A stretch of 35,662 nucleotides of DNA from Amnibacterium sp. GTDB lineage: Bacteria; Actinomycetota; Actinomycetes; Actinomycetales; Microbacteriaceae. Location: contig DASYJR010000009.1 of NCBI GenBank assembly GCA_035996305.1, positions 1 through 35,662 on the forward strand, in the 5' to 3' direction. A program made the translations under genes and the position numbers. Shown here piece by piece: positions 19,380-34,981 of this stretch. Each line of letters begins with the position of its first letter. Position 1 is the stretch's first letter. The notes beneath the pieces are model-generated. The model made no database searches, was not told the DNA's origin, and saw only the letters and a list, made by a program, of their open reading frames with translations.

Positions 19380-19458
19380 CCACCCCACACGCACACTTGC
19401 CACTTTCTGCCCTCATCCGGGTGGTTTGAGGGCAGAAAGCGGCAAGTGTGCGGTTCAG
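19376..19458. repeat. REP-like intergenic palindrome, copy 1
   Basis: 26-nt arms at 19390-19415 and 19427-19452 (25/26 complementary); homologous to 34425-34504; lies between convergent genes. Confidence 0.85.
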
Positions 19459-21089
19459 GCGAGGAGGGCGCGGACGCCCTCCCGGAGGGACGTCAGGGTC
19501 GCGTCCGTCGCCGACCGGCGGGACTCCGGCGTCGTCGCATCGGACCACACGTCGAGGTACGCCTTCAGCTTGGGCTCCGTGCCGCTCGGCCGCACGACGA
19601 GGCGGGCGCCGCCGGACAGCGTGAAGCGCAGCACGTCGGAGGGGGGCAGCCCGTCCGCCCCGTCGCGCAGGTCGTCGATCGACTCGACGTCCAGACCGCC
19701 GATGTCGGCCGGCGGCGTCCGGCGGAGCCGCGCCATGATCCGGTCGATCTCGGCGAGGTCGGCCACGCGGAGCGAGACCTGGTCGGAGTCGAACCGGCCG
19801 ATCGCCGCCTCGATCTCGGCCAGCCGGTCGCCGATCGTGCGGCCCTCCGCGGCCAGGCGCACCGCCTCGCGGAGCACGACCACGAGCGCCGAGACGCCGT
19901 CCTTGTCGCGCACGGTGGCCGGATCGACGAGGTAGCCGAGCGCCTCCTCGAAGCCGAAGAGCAGGGCGGGTGCGCGGGAGATCCACTTGAAGCCCGTGAG
20001 CGTCTGCGCGGACGAGAAGCCGAACGCCTCCGCGATGCGGCCGAGTCCTGGCGTGGACACGATCGAGGTGGCGAGGGTGCCGCCCGCCGCGTGCGTGCCC
20101 TTCGCGATCGTCCAGCCGAGCAGCAGGCCCGTCTCGTTGCCGCTGAGCCGGCGCCAGCCGCCCTCGCCGCCGGGGATCGCGACGGCCAGCCGGTCGGCGT
20201 CGGGATCGTTCGCGAGCACGAGCGCCGCGTCCGACGCCCGCGCGGTCGCGAACGCCGCGTCGAGCGTGCCGGGCTCCTCGGGGTTGGGGAACGGCGCCGT
20301 CGGGAAGTCCGGATCCGGGTCCGCCTGCGACGGCACGACGACCGGTTCCGGCAGCCCGGCGGCGGCCAGCACCCGCCGAACCGTCGCGAGCCCGACGCCG
20401 TGCATCGGCGTGTAGACCCAGGACAGGTCGCCCCGGACGCCGTCGGCCAGCTGCGCGGTCGCGGTCACGTACCGGTCGACGAGGTCGTCGCCCGCGACGG
20501 TCACGGCGTCGGCCCGGTCCGGCAGGCCACCCCGGGCGGTGACGGCGTCGATCTGCTCGAGCACCCGCGCGTCGTCGGGGCTCACCAGCTGCGAGCCGGC
20601 GTCGGCGCCGCCGAGGTAGAGCTTGTAGCCGTTGTCGGGCGCGGGGTTGTGGGACGCCGTGATCATCACGCCGGCACTCGCGTCGAGGTCGCGGACCGCG
20701 AAGGCGAGCACCGGCGTCGGCAGGGCCCGCGGCAGCAGCGTGACGTCGACGCCGGCGGCGGCGAGCACCTCGGCGGCGTCCCGGGCGAAGCGGTCGGACT
20801 TGTGGCGCGCGTCGTGCCCGATCACGGCGGACGGGCGGTCGGTGCGGGTCGCGAGGAAGCGGGCGAGCCCGGCGGAGGTGCGCATCACGACGACCCGGTT
20901 CATCCGGTTCGGTCCCGCACCGAGCGCGCCGCGCAGTCCGGCCGTGCCGAACTCGAGCCGCCCGCCGAACCGCTCCGCGAGCCCCTCGCGGTCGTCCTCG
21001 TCGAGCAGGCGGCGCAGCTCCGCGACGGTGTCGGGATCCGGATCGATCGCGAGCCACGCCTCGGCCGAGGCCCGCAGCTCGTCGTTCAC
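19455..21089 (-). CDS. Phospho-sugar mutase (PGM/PMM family; possibly phosphopentomutase activity by context)
   Basis: FGTAGLRG, ITASHNP..DNGYK, NDPDADR, FEEALG, RPSGTEPKLKAY; GTG 21089 overlaps the punA stop. Confidence 0.93.
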   Translation of the reverse strand: MNDELRASAEAWLAIDPDPDTVAELRRLLDEDDREGLAERFGGRLEFGTAGLRGALGAGPNRMNRVVVMRTSAGLARFLATRTDRPSAVIGHDARHKSDRFARDAAEVLAAAGVDVTLLPRALPTPVLAFAVRDLDASAGVMITASHNPAPDNGYKLYLGGADAGSQLVSPDDARVLEQIDAVTARGGLPDRADAVTVAGDDLVDRYVTATAQLADGVRGDLSWVYTPMHGVGLATVRRVLAAAGLPEPVVVPSQADPDPDFPTAPFPNPEEPGTLDAAFATARASDAALVLANDPDADRLAVAIPGGEGGWRRLSGNETGLLLGWTIAKGTHAAGGTLATSIVSTPGLGRIAEAFGFSSAQTLTGFKWISRAPALLFGFEEALGYLVDPATVRDKDGVSALVVVLREAVRLAAEGRTIGDRLAEIEAAIGRFDSDQVSLRVADLAEIDRIMARLRRTPPADIGGLDVESIDDLRDGADGLPPSDVLRFTLSGGARLVVRPSGTEPKLKAYLDVWSDATTPESRRSATDATLTSLREGVRALLA

Positions 21090-23430: not shown

Positions 23431-23448
23431 GACGCCCGAACTGGGGAC
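23431..23448 (+). promoter_or_regulatory. Putative response-regulator box upstream of the SGNH-GAF gene
   Basis: GACGCC-CGAACT-GGGGAC, ending 24 nt before TACCGT (23473-23478); matches boxes at 27271 and 31308. Confidence 0.55.
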
Positions 23449-24723: not shown

Positions 24724-26058
24724 TCAGGCGCCGGCAGCCCGCCGGCGCTCTGCGGGAACGGCGCCCAGCACGGCCTCGGCCGGGCGGCCCTTGCCGCCCG
24801 TGATCGGGAACAGCGACGGTGCGGCGATCGGCCCGGTCGGCGTCGTGGTGCGGGCGGCGCCCCGCAGCGCGGCCCCGAGGGCGGCGGTGGCCCGCAGCGG
24901 CCCGGCGGCGACGCTCGCGCCGAGGATCCGCAGCGCGGTGCGGCGCGACGGGACGTACCAGAGGAAGAACGCCGCCCGCACGGTCCAGGCGACGATGCCG
25001 GACATCCGGATGCCGTAGACGCGGGCCACGGCCTTGCCGGGCGCGAACGCGGCGACCGTGCCGATCCCGCGGAAGCCGAGCCGCCGGGCGGCGCCGCCGC
25101 GGACCTCCCTGGCGATGTTGCGGCCGACTCGGGTGCCGGCGCGGATGGCCCAGATCGCGTCCTTGGAGGCGAGGGCGCCGCCCGGCGTGCGCACCGCGGC
25201 GACGTCGCCGGCGCTCCAGATCCGGTCGGTGACGCGGAGCACGTCGTCGACCTGCAGGAGCCCGTCGGCGCGCTGCCACCGCTCGAGGCCGGGGAGGCCG
25301 GGGACCGCGTTGCCGAGGGTCGCGACGACCGTCGCGGCGGGGATGACGGCGCCGGAGGCGAGCCGCACGCCGTACTCGTCGACGCGGGCGACGCGGGCGT
25401 CGGGCAGCACCGTCACCGCTGCCGCGTTGAGGTTGCGGAGCAGCCGGTCGTGCATCCACGGCTGGTCCCGCCAGGCGGGAGCGACCGCCGGCGACGCGGA
25501 GACGAGCACCACGCGGTGCGTGCCGCCGTAGCGGCGGCCGAGGGCGGCCGCGACCTCGGTGCCCGCGAACCCGCCGCCGGCGACGACGATCGTGCGGCGC
25601 CGCCGCGCGTCGTCCGGATCCGCTGCCGGCTCGGCCTCGAGCGCCGACAGGTGGTCGATGAGCGCGCCGACCTCGCCGGGGAACCGGAGGGGGAGCCCGT
25701 GCTCGGCCAGGCCCGGCACGGACGAGGACCGCTCCCGCGCCCCGGTCGCGACGACCAGGTGGTCGTACGCCACCTCGCGCCGGGTGCCCCGCCACTCGAC
25801 CGTGACGGTGCGGCGCTCGGCGTCGACCGCGGTCGCCCAGCCGCGCACCCGGGTGGCGTGCGGGAGGCACTCGGGAAGCGGGCTCACCTGCAGCGCTGCG
25901 GGCAGGTCGCCGCTCAGCACCTCGCCGGTGAATCCGTGGAACACGTGGTCCTCGAACGGCGCGACGACCGTGATGTCGGCGGATCTGCCGAGGTGCCGGC
26001 GCAGCGCCCGGTAGCACCAGATCGCGGAGTAGCCGCCGCCCAGCAGGACGATCCTCAT
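24724..26058 (-). CDS. NAD(P)/FAD-dependent oxidoreductase, NDH-2-like
   Basis: RIVLLGGGY, YDHLVVATG, VVAGGGFAGTEVA, IWSAGDVA; ATG 26058 overlaps the upstream stop. Confidence 0.82.
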   Translation of the reverse strand: MRIVLLGGGYSAIWCYRALRRHLGRSADITVVAPFEDHVFHGFTGEVLSGDLPAALQVSPLPECLPHATRVRGWATAVDAERRTVTVEWRGTRREVAYDHLVVATGARERSSSVPGLAEHGLPLRFPGEVGALIDHLSALEAEPAADPDDARRRRTIVVAGGGFAGTEVAAALGRRYGGTHRVVLVSASPAVAPAWRDQPWMHDRLLRNLNAAAVTVLPDARVARVDEYGVRLASGAVIPAATVVATLGNAVPGLPGLERWQRADGLLQVDDVLRVTDRIWSAGDVAAVRTPGGALASKDAIWAIRAGTRVGRNIAREVRGGAARRLGFRGIGTVAAFAPGKAVARVYGIRMSGIVAWTVRAAFFLWYVPSRRTALRILGASVAAGPLRATAALGAALRGAARTTTPTGPIAAPSLFPITGGKGRPAEAVLGAVPAERRRAAGA

Positions 26059-27155
26059 GCGGCCACCTCGTCGTTCGTGGGTGCGAATCCGGCCGTGCCG
26101 CCGAGGCCCGGCACCTCGACGGGCTCGCCGAAGCCGGTCGGGGGAGCGAGGTCGAAGCCGAGCGTCGCGTAGCGGTCCGCCAGGGCGTCCATGTGCTCGA
26201 CCTGGGCGAGGGTCGGCCGGCCGATGGTGCCGTGCGTGCGGTGCCCGTCGAGGGCGAGCAGGGCGGTCTCGGCGAGGCAGGCGAACGAGCTGCCGGCGTC
26301 GATGCCGATGCTCCGGCCTCGGCGGATCAGGCCGGGCGTGAGCACGAGGCCGCCGTCGACGACCGTCACGTCGGGCCGCCGGAGCAGGAGATCGGGCGTC
26401 GTGTTCCGCGGCTGGGTGTCGTCGATCACGACGGCGCCCGGCTTCAGGTGCTCCGGCTGCAGCACCGCGTCGATCGCGGACGTCATGAGCACGACGACGT
26501 CGGCACGGCGGCAGTCCGCGAGATCGACGGAGGCGGTCGCGACGGGGCCCAGGTCCTTCGCGAGCGCGGCGAGGGGGTTCGCGCTGCGGGCGACGAGCAG
26601 CAGCTCCGCGGCGACTCCGGTGCGGGCCAGCAGCCGGGCCACGGCCGCCCCGACCGAGCCGGTCGCGCCGACCAGCGCGATCACGGCGGGCCGGCCGAGC
26701 GCCGCGGCGACGGCCGCCGTCGCGCGGGCGGTGGCGGCCGCCGTGAAGGCGTTGCCGTTCGTGACGCCGACGTCGGTGCGGGTCCGCAGCCGGGCGCCGC
26801 CGGCGGTCGCCGGCGCGGTCAGCGCGCCGAGGCCGATCAGGCGCGCGCCCCGCGAGACCGCGAAGTCGACACCCTCGTCGATCCGTCGCTTCACGAACGC
26901 GCGATCCGCGCCGAGCAGCTGCCGCGGGCTGAGCGGCAGCACGATCACCTCCCCGAGCGGCTCGCCGGGTCGGTCCTGGGCCGAGATCGTCGCCTGCACC
27001 CACGGGCGCAGCGGCAGGCTCCGGAGGGCGCGCTCGTACACGGCGGTGGGCAGGGCGCCGAGCAGCGGATGCACGGTGGCGAGGTCGGCACGCAGGTCCG
27101 TGCGCGGATGCACGAGGAACGCGAACCGGCTCCGCGGCGACGACGGACCGTCCAC
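26055..27155 (-). CDS. Acyl-ACP reductase-like NAD(P)-dependent dehydrogenase (COG5322-like)
   Basis: FAFLVHP, IGLGALT, VTNGNAFTA, VGATGSVG Rossmann motif, VVDGGLV, FACLAETALL; GTG at 27155. Confidence 0.78.
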   Translation of the reverse strand: MDGPSSPRSRFAFLVHPRTDLRADLATVHPLLGALPTAVYERALRSLPLRPWVQATISAQDRPGEPLGEVIVLPLSPRQLLGADRAFVKRRIDEGVDFAVSRGARLIGLGALTAPATAGGARLRTRTDVGVTNGNAFTAAATARATAAVAAALGRPAVIALVGATGSVGAAVARLLARTGVAAELLLVARSANPLAALAKDLGPVATASVDLADCRRADVVVLMTSAIDAVLQPEHLKPGAVVIDDTQPRNTTPDLLLRRPDVTVVDGGLVLTPGLIRRGRSIGIDAGSSFACLAETALLALDGHRTHGTIGRPTLAQVEHMDALADRYATLGFDLAPPTGFGEPVEVPGLGGTAGFAPTNDEVAA

Positions 27156-27255
27156 CTCTGCCCCCTGACCCGGATGGGGGCGCACAGCGACGGACGCCAC
27201 CACGGTGGCGGACGCGCGGACCGACCCCCGTCTGCCCGACTGATCCCCCCGCCCC

Positions 27256-27288
27256 GGCCCCCGAACGGGGAACCCCTGAACTGGGGAC
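27256..27288. promoter_or_regulatory. Tandem putative response-regulator boxes upstream of the reductase operon
   Basis: GGCCCC-CGAACG-GGGAAC (27256-27273) and AACCCC-TGAACT-GGGGAC (27271-27288). Confidence 0.55.
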
Positions 27289-27445
27289 GGAGCGACTGGT
27301 GCCACCATATCGGGGGGCACGGGCCCCTCCGCAAGTACCGGTTCGGTACCGGTCCGAGCGCGCCGCGGTCCCAGGGGATCCCGGGCATCGGGGAGCGCGC
27401 GCCGGAGGCGTCAGCGACGCCTCGCGAGCGCCCGAGCGGCTCCGC

Positions 27446-30064: not shown

Positions 30065-31288
30065 GTGACGGATGCGGGTGGGCTCGAGGGGTCAGAGATC
30101 GACCTCGACGTGCTGCGCATCGCGCACGGCGGGGTGTCGGTGGCCGAGCACGAGGGCCGGGTCGTGTTCGTGACCGACACGCTGCCGGGTGAGCGCGTGC
30201 GGGCCGTGGTGACCGAGGACCGGCACGAGCGATGGCTGCGGGCCGAGACCGTCGCCGTGCTGGAGGCGTCCCCCGACCGCCGACCGCACATCTGGCCGGC
30301 GGCGTCCGTCGACCGGGAGCCGGCGCAGCGGGCGGGCGGCGCCGAGTTCGGGCACATCGCCCCCGACCGGCAGCGCGCGCTGAAGACCGAGGTGCTGCGC
30401 GACGCGCTCGCCCGCACCGGCCGGATGCCGCAGGCTCGGATCGACGCCCTCGACCCCGTCGTGCGGGCCGTCCCGGGACCCGACGACGGCACCCGGTCCC
30501 GCACACGGATCCGCCTGCACGTCGACCCGGGGGGCGCCCTGGGACCCTACGCCGCGCGGACGCGGCAGGTCGTGCCCGTCGACGACCTGCCGCTCGGGGT
30601 GCCGGCCCTCGAGGCCCTGCTCCCCGGCGCGCCCCGCGATCGCGACGCCGTCGACCTGATCGCGCCGTCCGCGGGGGAGCCGTTCGCCCTCGCGGCGCGG
30701 ACCGCGCATCCGCCGATCGCCGAGCGGGTGGGGGAGCGCACCTTCTCCCTCGAGGCGACCGGCTTCTGGCAGGTGCATCCGTCCGCGCCGGACGTGCTCA
30801 CCGCCGCCGTGCGGGCGGCGCTGGACCCCGTCCGGTTCGATCCGCGCGCCGGCAACCTCGACCTCTACGGCGGCGTCGGGCTGCTCGCGGCAGCCCTCGG
30901 GGACGCCGGGGGCCCGGGCACCCGCGTGACGACCGTGGAGGCCGACCGGGCCGCGAGCCGTCACGCCGGGAGCAACCTCGCGTCGTGGCGGGGTGCGACC
31001 GCCGTCTCCGCCCGCGTCGACGCGTTCCTCGCCCGCGAGCGGGAGCAGCGGCCAGGCGCGACGGTCGTGCTCGACCCGCCGCGGTCGGGCGCGGGGCGCG
31101 CCGTGGTCGAGGCCGTCGCGGCGCTCGGTCCCGCCCGCGTCGTCTACGTCGCCTGCGATCCGGTCGCTCTCGCCCGCGACCTCGCCACGTTCGCGGAGCA
31201 CGGCTGGTCGCCCGTGCGCTTCGAGGCCCTCGACCTGTTCCCGAACACGCACCACCTCGAGGCCGTCGTGGCCCTGGACCGCGGCTGA
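30065..31288 (+). CDS. TRAM-domain RNA (uracil-5)-methyltransferase, RlmD/TrmA family
   Basis: N-terminal TRAM (IAHGG..VFV..LPGERV), FWQVH, DLYGGVG, LDPPRSG, YVACDP, DLFPNTHHLE. Confidence 0.9.
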   Translation: MTDAGGLEGSEIDLDVLRIAHGGVSVAEHEGRVVFVTDTLPGERVRAVVTEDRHERWLRAETVAVLEASPDRRPHIWPAASVDREPAQRAGGAEFGHIAPDRQRALKTEVLRDALARTGRMPQARIDALDPVVRAVPGPDDGTRSRTRIRLHVDPGGALGPYAARTRQVVPVDDLPLGVPALEALLPGAPRDRDAVDLIAPSAGEPFALAARTAHPPIAERVGERTFSLEATGFWQVHPSAPDVLTAAVRAALDPVRFDPRAGNLDLYGGVGLLAAALGDAGGPGTRVTTVEADRAASRHAGSNLASWRGATAVSARVDAFLAREREQRPGATVVLDPPRSGAGRAVVEAVAALGPARVVYVACDPVALARDLATFAEHGWSPVRFEALDLFPNTHHLEAVVALDRG

Positions 31289-31307: not shown

Positions 31308-31385
31308 GCACCCGAACTGGGGGACGGATCAGCCCCGATCGGGGTGCACCTTTCAGTCCGTTCTGTCCCCCGAAATCCGTAGACT
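31308..31385 (+). promoter_or_regulatory. Response-regulator promoter with repeated boxes
   Basis: GCACCC-GAACTG-GGGGAC (31308-25), CAGCCC-CGATCG-GGGTGC (31330-47), half-site GTCCCC-CGAAAT (31365-76), -10 TAGACT (31380-85). Confidence 0.6.
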
Positions 31386-31416: not shown

Positions 31417-32115
31417 ATGACCATCACGAACGCACAGCCGGAGTCGCAGACCCTGCTCGTCCGCGTCGCCGTCGTCGACGACCACGAATCCGTCCGGCTC
31501 GGCCTCAGCGCCGCCTGCATGCGGGAGGGCTTCCAGTTCGTCGAGGAGGGCGCGACCGTCGGCGAGCTCATCGAGCGGCTGAAGGGCCGCGAGACGGACG
31601 TGGTCGTGCTCGACCTGTCCCTCGGCGACGGCTCCACCATCACGGAGAACGTCAAGAACATCCAGGCCACCGGTGCCGGCGTGCTCGTGCACTCCATCGC
31701 CGACCGCGCCGCCGGTGTCCGCGAGGCGCTGGCCGCCGGTGCGGCCGGTGTCATCCCGAAGTCGGCGGCCACCGCCACCGTCATGGCCGCGATCCGCACG
31801 GTCGCCCGCGGCGAGGTGCTGAACAACCTCGAGTGGGCGAGCGCGATCGACGCGGACGTCGAGTTCGCCAAGGCGCAGCTCGGCCGCCGCGAGCGCGACG
31901 TGCTGAACCTGTACGCCTCCGGCCTCCCGCTGCGGATGGTCGCCGAGCAGCTCGGCATCGCCCCGTCGACGGTCCGCGAGTACCTGGACCGCATCCGCGT
32001 CAAGTACGTCGAGGTCGGCCGCCCTGCCCCCACCAAGGTGGACCTGCTCCGCCGCGCGGTGGAGGACGGCATCCTGCCGAACCTCGACATCGACGCCGAT
32101 GACGATGAGGTCTGA
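31417..32115 (+). CDS. NarL/LuxR-family response regulator
   Basis: Receiver VAVVDDH, VVLD (phospho-Asp), VIPKS; HTH LGRRERDVLNLYASG...STVREYLDRIRVK; AAGGAG RBS. Confidence 0.93.
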   Translation: MTITNAQPESQTLLVRVAVVDDHESVRLGLSAACMREGFQFVEEGATVGELIERLKGRETDVVVLDLSLGDGSTITENVKNIQATGAGVLVHSIADRAAGVREALAAGAAGVIPKSAATATVMAAIRTVARGEVLNNLEWASAIDADVEFAKAQLGRRERDVLNLYASGLPLRMVAEQLGIAPSTVREYLDRIRVKYVEVGRPAPTKVDLLRRAVEDGILPNLDIDADDDEV

Positions 32116-33376
32116 GGAGCCCGCGCTCACCGAGCAACCGGCGCCTGAGGCCCGCGGCTTCGTCTCGCCGATCGGCACGCGCCGCGTCGAGGTCACCCTC
32201 GCCGTCGCGATGAGCCTCTTCGGCCTGCTCTTCAGCGTGCAGAGCCTGCCGGCACTGATCGCGCAGGCCGGTTCCATGGACTCGGCGCTGGGCCGTGCCA
32301 TCGTCGTGCTCGTCTACGGCACGATCCTGATCGCCGGGCTCGCCGCCGTGCTGCGCCAGTGGACGACCCAGATCTTCCTCACCGCGGCGGCGGCCTACCT
32401 GGTCGCGCTCGCGCTGTGGGTGCCCTCCCTGCACGGCGCGTTCCCGCGGCTCGAGATCCCCTGGATCATCGGGCTCGCGGGTGTGCCGAGCGGGTTCGTG
32501 ATCGTCGCGCGCCGGGAGTGGGTCACGCCGGCGATCTACACGATCGCGATCGGGATCGTGATCGGGCTGCTGCGCTCGTCCGTCTACGGCGGGGCGGTCG
32601 ACCCGGGCCGGGCGCTGCTCGACGCCGTCTACGCCGTCGCGCTGAACCTGGGCCTGCTCATCCTCACCGTCGCCGTGCGACTCGCCGCCCGCCAGGTCGA
32701 CCAGGCGCAGACGAACGCGCTGCAGCGGTACGCGTCCGCGCAGATCGACCAGGCCATGGAGGCCGAGCGGGTGCGCACCGATGCCCTCGTGCACGACTCG
32801 GTGCTCACCACGTTCCTGTCTGCCGCGGCCGCGCAGACGGCCGAGGGGAAGGACCTCGCGGCGCGCATGGCGCGCAACGCGATGGGCCACCTGTCGCGGG
32901 CGACCGTCGCGGCGGAGACCGGCCCCCATGTCACCCTCGCGGACCTCGTGCCGCGGATCCGGGAGGACGCCCTCGCCGTCGTCGACCGGTTCGAGGTCCG
33001 CACGGAGTCCCTCGACGGCCGCGCCGTGCCGACCACGGTCGCCGAGGCGCTCGTCTCCGCGACCGTGCAGGCGATGACGAACAGCGTGAAGCACGCGGGC
33101 GGCCCGGAGCTGCGGCGGTCCGTGGTGCTCCGCGGCACCACCGCGGGCGGCGTGCAGTCGGTGATCAGCGACAACGGCGCCGGCTTCGATCCCGCCCTGA
33201 TCATGAGCGAGCGGCTCGGTGTGCGCGTGTCGATCCTCGAGCGCGTCCGCCTCGTCGGCGGCGACGCCGACATCCGCACGGCCCCGGGGCTCGGCACGAC
33301 GGTCCTGCTGTCCTGGCCCGCGGCGGCCCGCGAGGCGTCGGAGCCCGTCGACATCAGGGCGCTGGCGCTCGGATGA
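32099..33376 (+). CDS. Membrane sensor histidine kinase (HisKA_3-like)
   Basis: About 5-6 TM helices, LVHDSVL H-box, TNSVKHAG N-box, ISDNGAGFD G1, LGVRVSILER, PGLGTTV. Confidence 0.9.
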   Translation: MTMRSEEPALTEQPAPEARGFVSPIGTRRVEVTLAVAMSLFGLLFSVQSLPALIAQAGSMDSALGRAIVVLVYGTILIAGLAAVLRQWTTQIFLTAAAAYLVALALWVPSLHGAFPRLEIPWIIGLAGVPSGFVIVARREWVTPAIYTIAIGIVIGLLRSSVYGGAVDPGRALLDAVYAVALNLGLLILTVAVRLAARQVDQAQTNALQRYASAQIDQAMEAERVRTDALVHDSVLTTFLSAAAAQTAEGKDLAARMARNAMGHLSRATVAAETGPHVTLADLVPRIREDALAVVDRFEVRTESLDGRAVPTTVAEALVSATVQAMTNSVKHAGGPELRRSVVLRGTTAGGVQSVISDNGAGFDPALIMSERLGVRVSILERVRLVGGDADIRTAPGLGTTVLLSWPAAAREASEPVDIRALALG

Positions 33377-34428
33377 TCACCCTCCCGCGCCCGCTGCTCG
33401 TGGCGCTCGCCGTCGGGTTCTCGCTGTACCACGTCATCCTCGGCGTCTCCGCGGTGCTGGCCGGCGAGTACAGCGACCATGTGGAGCGGGTGATCGCGGC
33501 GCTCGTGCTGTTCGCGGTCGTCACCGTGCTGTCGGTCACCGTGGGCCGTGGCGTCGAGATGCCGGTGTGGCTCGCCGGGCTGAACGTCGGCGCCGGCCTG
33601 TCGATCACGCTGCTCGTGGCGAGCGCCATCGACCTCGGCCACAAGGGCGACCTCGGCTACGCCACCTGGTACGTGGCGGCGGTCGGCACGCTGCTCACGG
33701 TCACCGCCGTGCGCCGGCACACGACCTACGCGTGGTTCGGTCTCGGCCTGCTCGTCACCCAGACCGTGGTGTGGGCCGGCCCGATCGGATTGACGCGGTT
33801 CGGCGTGGTCGGCGACATCCTCTGGGTCGGCATCGCGCACGTCTTCACCCGCGCCCTCGCGCGTGCGACGGTCGACGTGCGGCAGTTCGCCCGCGCGGAG
33901 CGGGAGGCCGTGGAGTGGCAGGCCGCGCAGGACGCGCACCACTTCGAGCGGCAGGTGCGGCTCACGCAGACGAGCCGGATGGCGCTGCCGATGCTGCGCC
34001 GCATCGCGGAGGTCGGCGGGGAGCTGGACGAGGACGACCGGCACGAGTGCCGGGTGCTGGAGCAGTCGATCCGCGACGAGATCCGCGGGCGGCGGCTGCT
34101 GAACGACCGGGTGCGGGAGCAGGTGATCGCGGCCAGGCGCCGCGGCGCGTTCGTGCAGGTGCTCGACGACGGCGGCGTGGACGACATCGACGCCGAGCTG
34201 CTCGACCCGGTGCTCGACCAGGTGGCGGATGCGCTGAGCCGCGTGCGCTCGGACCGCATCATCATCCGCACGGCCCCGAGGGGCTCCGCGAAGGCGGTCA
34301 CGGTCGTGGGCCTGTCGAGCGGCACGTCGGCCGCGAGTGCGCTCGGCATCGAGGACGAGGACGAGGACGTCGACCTCTGGCTGGAGCTGGAGCGGCCGGC
34401 GGGTGCTCCGACCCCGGTCCAGGTCTGA
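33373..34428 (+). CDS. Membrane protein, probable degenerate histidine-kinase paralogue
   Basis: ATG 33373 overlaps the kinase stop; about 5 TM helices, coiled segment and cytoplasmic domain with no H/N/G boxes. Confidence 0.78.
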   Translation: MITLPRPLLVALAVGFSLYHVILGVSAVLAGEYSDHVERVIAALVLFAVVTVLSVTVGRGVEMPVWLAGLNVGAGLSITLLVASAIDLGHKGDLGYATWYVAAVGTLLTVTAVRRHTTYAWFGLGLLVTQTVVWAGPIGLTRFGVVGDILWVGIAHVFTRALARATVDVRQFARAEREAVEWQAAQDAHHFERQVRLTQTSRMALPMLRRIAEVGGELDEDDRHECRVLEQSIRDEIRGRRLLNDRVREQVIAARRRGAFVQVLDDGGVDDIDAELLDPVLDQVADALSRVRSDRIIIRTAPRGSAKAVTVVGLSSGTSAASALGIEDEDEDVDLWLELERPAGAPTPVQV

Positions 34429-34504
34429 CCACCCGTACGCACGCTTGCCACTTTCTGCCCCCTCAGGGGCCCGGAAGGGGCAGAAAGTGGCAAGTGTGCG
34501 TCAG
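34425..34504. repeat. REP-like intergenic palindrome, copy 2
   Basis: 25-nt arms at 34437-34461 and 34477-34501 (24/25 complementary); shares the CTGACCACCC 5' flank and TCAG 3' end with copy 1. Confidence 0.85.
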
Positions 34505-34507
34505 GAA

Positions 34508-34661
34508 GACGGCGAAGGGGCCGGCCTCCCCAGACCGGCCCCTGTACACCCCCGAGTCGAGGAGACAACCCGAATATCTCGTCGACTCGCCCCCGACGGA
34601 CGCCTGCTTACCCTGATCGGCGGTCCGCCCGGTCGCGTCGCCGTGGGTCGGCCGACGCTGT
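34508..34661 (-). ncRNA. Candidate structured small RNA (~155 nt, four hairpins, G-rich loops and linkers)
   Basis: Four stems found by eye; G-U pairs in three of them work only on the minus strand; CAGAAT -10 at 34673-34668; last stem is terminator-like; no credible ORF. Confidence 0.6.
34516..34543 (-). terminator. Terminator-like hairpin with GGGG loop
   Basis: AGGGGCCGGUCU-GGGG-AGGCCGGCCCCU followed by UCGCCGUCUU. Confidence 0.65.
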
Positions 34662-34667
34662 ACCCCT

Positions 34668-34724
34668 ATTCTGCCGCCGCCTCAAGGGGTTCGCAGTAGG
34701 CCGTTACGGGGACATTCGGGGTAC
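34668..34724 (-). promoter_or_regulatory. Putative promoter of the candidate sRNA with response-regulator boxes
   Basis: -10 CAGAAT; plus-strand GTAGGC-CGTTAC-GGGGAC (34696-34713) and CATTCG-GGGTAC (34713-34724). Confidence 0.45.
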
Positions 34725-34765
34725 AAAGCAGCACTCGACCGGTCGTTCTCCGACCCCCGTTCGGG

Positions 34766-34981
34766 TCAGCGTGGATCGTTCCAGCGGCCCTCGGTGTCGG
34801 TCGTCCGCCGGAGGCCCCTCCGGCTGCGGTTCCACGCCGACGCGACGTGGGTCGGCGGGAGCGCCTTGACGGCTGCGGCGCGCTCGAGCTGCAGCTGCGC
34901 GAACACGGCGGCGATCGCCGCGACCTCGTCGTCGGTCGCGGAGCCGCCGAGCACCCGCGGGCTCTCCGGAGCGTCGGTCAC
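34766..34981 (-). CDS. accE: Acyl-CoA carboxylase epsilon subunit
   Basis: [18 protein letters not shown]...SAWNRSRR; 71 aa; GTGA-coupled to the carboxyltransferase. Confidence 0.82.

What the first reader, a model, noticed from the sequence alone, without database searches (positions are those of the whole stretch)
34508..34661. Unannotated four-hairpin small RNA displaying G-runs, next to a NarL-type two-component operon
Seen: the non-coding gap folds on the minus strand into four stems. These are A 34658-34635 (loop ACCCA), B 34629-34595 (loop GAUCAGGGUAAGCA), C 34589-34553 (loop UUCGGGU) and D 34543-34516 (loop GGGG, terminator-like). Linkers read GGGGG and GGGGUGUAC. The G-U wobbles in B, C and D would be A-C mismatches on the plus strand, which points to a minus-strand RNA. 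A CAGAAT -10 sits just upstream. Known: CsrB/RsmY/RsmZ sponge RNAs display a repeated motif (GGA) in loops and linkers and are activated by NarL-family regulators (UvrY/GacA). Inference: this may be an analogous actinobacterial RNA that uses GGG motifs to titrate a protein or pair with C-rich targets. I do not recognise it as a known family.
Basis: partly seen in the sequence, partly recalled or inferred. Interest (0 to 1): 0.85.

Follow-up and report, generated by a model that had tools for sequence, protein, structure and literature searches.

The report
Family-wide Microbacteriaceae GGGU-loop small RNA
A four-hairpin RNA gene that matches no catalogued family is conserved in about two-thirds of the Microbacteriaceae genomes searched; it is likely switched on by the neighbouring response regulator and likely acts through a nearly invariant UUCGGGU loop, with its target still unidentified.

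Summary
The minus strand at 34661-34508 folds into the four stems described (z -3.7). The element lies at the same locus across Microbacteriaceae: 71 of 80 loci picked by the neighbouring protein and 103 of 150 family genomes, with no true homolog found outside the family and no Rfam match. All stems covary (40 of 47 pairs). It has a conserved activator site, a -10 box and a terminal hairpin, and the whole module is inverted in four genomes, so it is not an accDE 3' UTR. The activator site tracks the NarL-type regulator: it is kept where only the kinases were lost and is absent in all four genomes that lost the regulator. Loop C (UUCGGGU, 114 of 122) is the core; loop B (GGGUA) and the G5 linker are dispensable. 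The RNA fails the CsrB/Rsm and ANTAR tests. Best reading: a regulator-activated trans-acting sRNA that pairs through U-turn loops with C-rich RNA, a mirror image of 6C. Protein titration remains a strong rival. No target was found, and a discrete transcript is only hinted at.

The parts
34708..34725 (-). Predicted activator site: two C-rich half-sites TGTACCCC and TGTCCCC
   Evidence: A site pattern is present in 50 of 57 model hits and in 4.9% of shuffles; it is absent where the regulator is lost.
34695..34700 (-). Conserved ACT anchor next to the predicted -35 region
   Evidence: spacer of 21-22 nt to the -10 box in 44 of 50 site-bearing hits.
34668..34673 (-). Predicted -10 hexamer CAGAAT
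   Evidence: The generic sigma-70 scan does not call it.
34506..34661 (-). Predicted small RNA, about 155 nt; predicted start 34661
   Evidence: model R1 hit 34506-34662, E 1.9e-28; 79 of 122 homologs are 150-159 nt.
34635..34658 (-). Hairpin A; its ACCC loop is genus-specific and could kiss loop C
   Evidence: ACCC in 14 of 16 genus copies against 4 of 106 others; A-loop/C-loop duplex -9.9 kcal/mol.
34595..34629 (-). Hairpin B with GGGUA in its loop (34618-34605)
   Evidence: GGGUA in 94 of 120; covariation in 11 of 11 pairs.
34553..34589 (-). Hairpin C with near-invariant 7-nt loop UUCGGGU (34574-34568): the functional core
   Evidence: UUCGGGU in 114 of 122, CUCGGGU 5, UCCGGGU 1; 13 of 15 pairs covary.
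34516..34543 (-). Hairpin D, predicted terminator; loop CUGGGGAG conserved within the genus; weak U-tract here
   Evidence: The strict terminator scan does not call it.
31417..32115 (+). NarL/LuxR-type response regulator (receiver + GerE HTH); likely activator
32099..33376 (+). Membrane histidine kinase (HATPase_c)
   Evidence: best NCBIfam hit MacS-like, far below cut-off.
33373..34428 (+). Third gene of the operon: membrane protein of no known family; used as synteny marker
31311..31373 (+). Palindrome CCCG-N3-TGGGG and a TGTCCCCC half-site upstream of the regulator; conserved only in close relatives
34437..34501 (.). Separate REP-like 65-bp palindrome, not part of the RNA
   Evidence: 21 places in the own genome; missing at this locus in most relatives.
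34766..34981 (-). accE (acyl-CoA carboxylase epsilon), upstream neighbour
   Evidence: PF13822.

Best explanation
This is a conserved four-hairpin RNA gene with covarying stems that is likely transcribed from its own promoter when the neighbouring NarL-type response regulator binds upstream, and that likely acts in trans by pairing its exposed UUCGGGU and GGGUA loops with C-rich (ACCC, ACCCG) stretches of other RNAs. Shown: sequence, fold, covariation, synteny, module inversion, and promoter-site presence tracking the regulator. Inferred: the transcript ends, activation by this regulator, and the pairing mechanism. Long stems hold a pyrimidine-U-N-purine (U-turn type) loop open, so 5-7 mostly G-C pairs could form without an RNA chaperone. 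That is the logic published for the C-rich loops of 6C, with the polarity reversed. The target is not identified.
For: RNA: 40 of 47 pairs have double-sided changes; covariation score 0.403 against 0.08-0.12 for slid controls; 0 of 500 shuffles reach it. 46 of 47 pairs on a second, model-fitted set. No ribosome-site-plus-ORF inside in 116 of 122. Independence: the module points the other way in G013, G114, G189 and G141; partial copies with the same promoter occur at another locus in G004, G009 and G012. Regulator link: among 150 genomes, 98 have RNA and operon marker, 37 neither, 5 RNA only, 10 marker only. G069 lost both membrane genes but keeps the regulator (77% identity) beside the RNA and keeps the site. 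G031, G147, G091 and G173 have no regulator ortholog and no site. Pairing: loops B and C are 96-97% open; loop C begins UUCG and loop B CUAG in the family consensus, both fitting the YUNR motif described for loop-loop antisense recognition (PMC4485353, passages); 6C binds mRNAs through two C-rich loops without chaperones (PMC6486639, passages). In three partial copies a complement of loop C (ACCCGA or UCCCGAG) lies just downstream, and the syntenic leader in the own genome keeps ACCCGAA.
Against: No target stands out. ACCCGA ranks 82 of 904 hexamers for sense bias in 620 leaders. The candidate small-ORF leader ranks 218 of 2189 by duplex energy, and that ORF was found in only 1 of 10 further genus genomes. 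ACCCG is only mildly raised upstream of the regulator (21 of 73 against shuffle mean 13.7, maximum 18). Two or more GGG-bearing loops in 104 of 122 RNAs fit a protein sponge equally well. G030 and G146 have the regulator but no site. The related palindrome is also above control in G020, which lacks the operon marker (7 against 3). One genus genome (G015) has the operon marker but no RNA hit. Loop-C invariance is partly built in, because both the extraction motif and the model favour it. Kin are not independent. A discrete transcript is not shown.
Confidence: 0.45

Rival explanations
1. Protein-titrating sponge: the regulator would activate the RNA, whose repeated GGGU/GGGG loops would sequester an unknown RNA-binding protein. 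This follows Csr/Rsm logic with a different protein and motif.
For: 75 of 122 RNAs have two GGG loops, 28 have three and 1 has four; the D loop also carries GGG[UG] in 35 of 120; length and four-stem layout are conserved; no enriched mRNA target; extra partial copies exist.
Against: No candidate protein was found. CsrA fails and ANTAR geometry fails. The loops differ in size (about 6, 7 and 4 nt), and only loop C is kept in all lineages.
Confidence: 0.27
2. tRNA-Pro anticodon-arm mimic: loop C would present U33-C34-G35-G36-G37 and act as a substrate or decoy for TrmD, prolyl-tRNA synthetase or an anticodon nuclease.
For: The loop is 7 nt and matches the tRNA-Pro(CGG) loop UUCGGGA at 6 of 7 positions; the model's false hits include tRNA-Pro(CGG). 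An anticodon-arm microhelix is a minimal TrmD substrate in one species (PMC5372735, passages). A related promoter palindrome lies upstream of a gene I read as proS from its translation (name recalled).
Against: Loops B and D are not in anticodon-loop register; there is no CCA end or cloverleaf; the proS site was noticed after the fact and its conservation was not tested.
Confidence: 0.08
3. Sponge for 6C RNA: the UUGGGGG linker and the D-loop would pair with the UUCCCCCCAA loops of the family's 6C.
For: 6C-type RNAs with those loops exist in the genus and family. The two-loop pattern is in 78 of 103 RNA-bearing genomes against 8 of 47 others. Duplex -11.3 kcal/mol with the linker and -10.1 with loop D.
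Against: Loop C gives only 3 pairs (-5.0). All 7 inspected genomes that lost the G5 linker (G065, G151, G073, G071, G091, G173, G130) keep 6C. 25 RNA-bearing genomes lack the strict pattern. The first two linker Gs are paired (open probability 0.12). No 6C was found in the 75%-complete own genome.
Confidence: 0.08
4. Decoy for the regulator itself: the loops would mimic operator half-sites, since the reverse strand of the promoter palindrome reads TTCGGG[GT] and CTGGGG.
For: The refined palindrome is intergenic in 22 of 22 places, against a 9% intergenic background (pattern tuned after seeing the hits). Its half-sites match loops C and D. An HTH protein that binds both DNA and RNA stem-loops is recalled (Aca2), not checked.
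Against: Loop C is kept in 4 of 4 genomes that lost the regulator ortholog.
Confidence: 0.04
5. Only a 3' UTR, stabiliser or terminator array of accD-accE or of the convergent operon.
For: It lies between two convergent operons; RNA-library contigs of two studies run through the homologous gap.
Against: Own promoter signature; inversion as a unit in 4 genomes; conserved loop sequence over covarying stems; survives deletion of the whole operon.
Confidence: 0.04

Closest known systems
6C RNA (RF01066) of Actinobacteria
   Same: Actinobacterial sRNA with two motif-bearing hairpin loops before a terminal hairpin; chaperone-free loop pairing is published for it (PMC6486639, passages).
   Different: Opposite polarity (G-rich loops against C6 loops), about twice as long, different locus, no model match; 6C is a separate gene in the same genomes.
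CsrB/CsrC, RsmY/RsmZ sponges
   Same: Stand-alone sRNA with a repeated loop motif and an upstream site for a NarL-family regulator (general features recalled; one search gave listings only).
   Different: Motif is GGGU, not GGA; 1-4 copies rather than many; not tied to CsrA presence.
ANTAR-target dual-hairpin RNAs (and the recalled EutX/Rli55 sponges)
   Same: Loop B can fold as the hexaloop AGGGUA with A1 and G4.
   Different: The second loop is 7 nt without A1, and the stems are long; the element is a free gene rather than a leader (PMC8164766, passages).
Two-component-activated mycobacterial sRNAs such as Mcr7 (PhoP) and MTS1338 (DosR); recalled, no call
   Same: Response-regulator-driven, Hfq-independent sRNAs in high-GC Gram-positives.
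   Different: No sequence or model similarity found; this RNA sits beside its own regulator and spans a whole family.
tRNA-Pro(CGG) anticodon arm
   Same: 7-nt loop identical at 6 of 7 positions.
   Different: 15-bp stem, no cloverleaf or CCA; ARAGORN calls no tRNA on the homolog loci tested.

Membership tests
Any Rfam 15 family | Covariance-model score at or above gathering threshold | tested here: not met
   0 hits in the window and in 15 loci; 19 sub-threshold hits at E<=10 in 34400-34800, mostly on the REP palindrome.
CsrB/Rsm sRNA | Multiple unpaired GGA motifs in loops and linkers | tested here: not met
   0 unpaired GGA in 104 of 122, 1 in 17, 2 in 1.
CsrB/Rsm sRNA | Co-occurrence with CsrA | tested here: not met
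   CsrA not found in G002, G024, G027, G030, G031 and G033, which carry the RNA; present in the own genome.
CsrB/Rsm sRNA | Upstream site for a NarL-family regulator | tested here: inconclusive
   A site exists and tracks the regulator; binding is untested and there are two exceptions (G030, G146).
CsrB/Rsm sRNA | Binds and titrates a protein | not testable with these tools
   Needs pull-down or gel shift.
6C RNA | Two loops with six cytosines | tested here: not met
   Loops are G-rich; 6C lies elsewhere.
ANTAR-target RNA | Two hexaloops with A1 and G4, linker 2-25 nt | tested here: not met
   Only loop B fits; loop C is the 7-nt UUCGGGU.
tRNA or tRNA-like gene | Cloverleaf recognised by ARAGORN | tested here: not met
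   No call on homolog loci L245, L246, L237, L243.
Trans-acting base-pairing sRNA (broad kind) | Independent non-coding unit with promoter and terminal hairpin | tested here: met
   from sequence only, transcript ends not mapped.
Trans-acting base-pairing sRNA (broad kind) | Conserved accessible seed | tested here: met
   Loop C UUCGGGU in 114 of 122, 96% open.
Trans-acting base-pairing sRNA (broad kind) | Conserved complementary target | tested here: inconclusive
   one genus-limited candidate, no enrichment.
Trans-acting base-pairing sRNA (broad kind) | Discrete transcript | tested here: inconclusive
   Only assembled contigs of RNA runs from a relative were available.

The most novel reading that the evidence does not exclude
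An actinobacterial counterpart of the Gac/Rsm circuit built from different parts: a family-wide two-component system drives an RNA whose GGGU loops titrate a protein that is not CsrA. In the boldest form the protein is a tRNA-Pro anticodon reader such as TrmD or prolyl-tRNA synthetase, which would couple envelope signalling to translation.
Probability: 0.3. Interest if true: 0.85.

Novelty: new variant of a known kind. Interest (0 to 1): 0.68.

Why it matters
Microbacteriaceae are abundant on plants, in soil and in water and include crop pathogens, yet my literature searches turned up no sRNA described for them. This RNA is among their most conserved non-coding elements and comes with a predicted regulator, operator and single seven-base functional loop, so it can be tested directly. 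High-GC Gram-positives are noted for C-rich sRNA loops (PMC6486639, passages). A conserved G-loop RNA is the opposite design and would show either a second chaperone-free pairing code or an unknown RNA-binding regulator.

Tried and rejected
Expression: one search listed 12 RNA runs of 3 studies at small share, 0.11-0.13. 7 of the 12 were laid on a named Clavibacter locus, L052; all are assembled contigs about 90-95% alike. In X9, two short contigs inside the RNA had word depth 2898 and 3204 against 138-198 on the flanking genes. In X9 and X12 cover stops at L052:4707, 8 nt above the predicted start. X10 and X11 lack cover over most of the RNA; X5 and X6 span it in one contig, and X1 covers it with two overlapping contigs. 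The tool states that contigs cannot show level, strand or ends, and the stop is from one study, so this is a hint only. Generic promoter and terminator scan: nothing. Weak model hits outside the family: the 4 inspected are tRNA-Pro or tRNA-Leu plus terminators; 7 more out-of-family hits were not inspected; hits inspected were tRNAs, gene ends or terminators, apart from three partial copies. A 9-base complement of loop B upstream of a small gene (own genome C16) was rejected: it coincides with a -10-like hexamer and is not kept in G010. Autoregulation site upstream of the regulator: only in close relatives. An accessibility-corrected 6C duplex test timed out; only plain duplex energies were obtained. 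One search used a wrong Pfam accession and is uninformative. Earlier findings of this scan: nothing by place, sequence or words. Papers: PMC8632094 (term search: no family names) and PMC12089995 (term search: no sRNA or two-component terms); some searches were seen as listings and abstract starts. No supplements were opened, so candidate-RNA tables in comparative screens (for example PMC5737381, listing only) could hold this motif unseen. No structure or complex job was run.

Full report
Observation. The gap between accE (34766-34981, minus strand; PF13822) and the last gene of a convergent operon (stop at 34428) holds two things. Its minus strand folds into stems A-D at the stated coordinates (-89.4 kcal/mol, z -3.71, 0 of 200 shuffles), better than the plus strand (z -2.06). 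The second is a 65-bp palindrome at 34437-34501 that recurs at 21 places in the genome and is not part of the RNA. Loop G-runs are open, and linker G-runs are partly paired. Rfam has no match. Relatives at 95% protein identity are named Amnibacterium, family Microbacteriaceae.

Conservation. I picked loci by the neighbouring protein, not by the RNA. Of 80 loci, 66 gave promoter plus RNA in a motif scan, 2 more matched the model and 3 held partial copies at contig ends. Of the 9 without a hit, 5 end within about 500 nt of the gene and 4 have longer flanks. An alignment of 66 sequences (chosen from the 76, dropping one with Ns and near-duplicates) shows double-sided changes in 40 of 47 pairs. 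The covariation score is 0.403, against 0.187 for shuffles and 0.08-0.12 for slid partners. I named stems A and B by hand, and relatedness inflates the shuffle test. A model-fitted set of 59 hits gives 46 of 47. Model R1 hits 103 of 150 family genomes at E<=1e-4, in 64 of 95 genera. In an order-wide sample, 11 genomes outside the family had weak hits; the 4 inspected are tRNAs with terminators.

What is conserved. Over 122 distinct sequences, loop C is UUCGGGU in 114, CUCGGGU in 5 and UCCGGGU in 1. Loop B has GGGUA in 94 of 120, the linker has G5 in 96 of 120, and the D loop has GGG[UG] in 35 of 120. Selection favours loop C in both sets, but the most divergent hits keep it while losing loop B or the linker. 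There is no coding signal (116 of 122 without ribosome site plus ORF).

Independent gene. Upstream of 57 model hits, 50 carry a GTCCYC...ACT site (4.9% in shuffles), and 44 of these have a NANNNT box 21-22 nt further on, with an unconserved spacer. That is the signature of an activator-dependent promoter and puts the start at about 34661. The whole module points the other way in G013, G114, G189 and G141, which a 3' UTR of accDE could not do. RNA-library contigs of a relative cover the homolog but cannot show ends or level (see Tried and rejected).

Link to the two-component system. The operon encodes a receiver-GerE regulator, a histidine kinase and a membrane protein of no known family. In 150 genomes, 98 have RNA and operon marker, 37 neither, 5 RNA only and 10 marker only. 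Of those 10, G030 has the RNA, G074 and G158 have divergent copies, and 6 are small genomes. The natural deletions are informative. G069 lost both membrane genes but keeps the regulator next to the RNA and keeps the site. G031, G147, G091 and G173 lost the operon, have no regulator ortholog with this query (best 44-49% or none) and lost the site, yet keep loop C. So the site likely belongs to this regulator, and loop C's partner is likely something else. Against: G030 and G146 have the regulator without the site, the four losses come from two genera only, and binding is untested.

Mechanism. CsrB/Rsm membership fails on motif and on CsrA distribution. ANTAR geometry fails (PMC8164766, passages). 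I favour loop-loop pairing (0.45). The conserved loops fit the YUNR U-turn described for antisense recognition loops (PMC4485353, passages). The layout mirrors 6C, which pairs through two C-rich loops without chaperones (PMC6486639, passages). Complements of loop C recur nearby: in hairpin A of 14 of 16 genus copies, and downstream of three partial copies and in the syntenic leader of the own genome. But no target class is enriched, and 104 of 122 RNAs display GGG in two or more loops, so titration of an unknown protein stays at 0.27. A tRNA-Pro anticodon mimic (0.08) rests on a 6-of-7 loop match and on a review passage that an anticodon-arm microhelix can be a TrmD substrate (PMC5372735, passages). 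A 6C sponge (0.08) gains from co-occurrence (78 of 103 against 8 of 47) but does not explain loop C, and 7 of 7 inspected genomes without the G5 linker keep 6C. A decoy of the regulator (0.04) is undercut by loop C surviving loss of the regulator.

Novelty. No Rfam family matches, and no paper on it appeared in the searches (open-licence library only; supplements unseen). It is a new family of a known kind, the regulator-controlled sRNA, with an unusual G-loop design. I put the chance that it is a real independent RNA gene at about 0.9 and that this regulator controls it at about 0.75. Interest 0.68.

Noticed in passing
window 34437-34501: A 65-bp REP-like palindrome right behind the RNA; 21 places in the own genome, a second copy at window 19389-19459, and related copies in some genus relatives.
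   Followed up: partly
window 31311-31322 and 23435-23446; own genome: Promoter palindrome CCCG-N3-TGGGG: 30 of 54 intergenic against 8-11 of 28-39 at other spacings, above control across the genus. It lies upstream of genes I read from their translations as ftsH, mraZ, divIVA, lemA and proS; the direct-repeat form lies before an Flp-type and a type IV-type pilin (names recalled, not scanned). Candidate global regulon.
   Followed up: partly
L258-L260; own genome C52:2075-2339: Partial copies (promoter plus hairpins C and D, no U-tract) in the leader of a 35-40 aa ORF, with a complement of loop C just downstream. The own genome has the promoter and ORF but not the hairpins.
   Followed up: partly
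L116-L119, L133-L139: Microbacteriaceae 6C RNAs with UUCCCCCCAA loops score below the Rfam cut-off (40-44 bits against 47), so annotation misses them; the strict pattern is in 86 of 150 family genomes.
   Followed up: partly
L206 and L208 (G095, G175), about 130 nt: A second structured candidate RNA with a similar upstream palindrome and a 3' hairpin whose loop is also UUCGGGU; no Rfam match for L206.
   Followed up: no
window 33373-34428: Conserved membrane protein of no Pfam or NCBIfam family, in 108 of 150 family genomes. Weaker relatives sit in open frames of 740-950 aa, possibly fused forms.
   Followed up: partly
window 30065-31288: An RlmD/TrmA-type uracil methyltransferase gene stays next to the RNA even where the operon was deleted; loop C resembles a T-loop except at one position.
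   Followed up: no
window 24724-27320: An acyl-ACP-reductase-like gene and its neighbours lie downstream of C-rich sites resembling the operator half-site.
   Followed up: no
G026, G028, G078, G143, G145, G162: Small genomes (1.2-1.7 Mb) keep the operon marker, but no RNA was found in them; two had only very weak hits at E about 0.3-1.
   Followed up: partly
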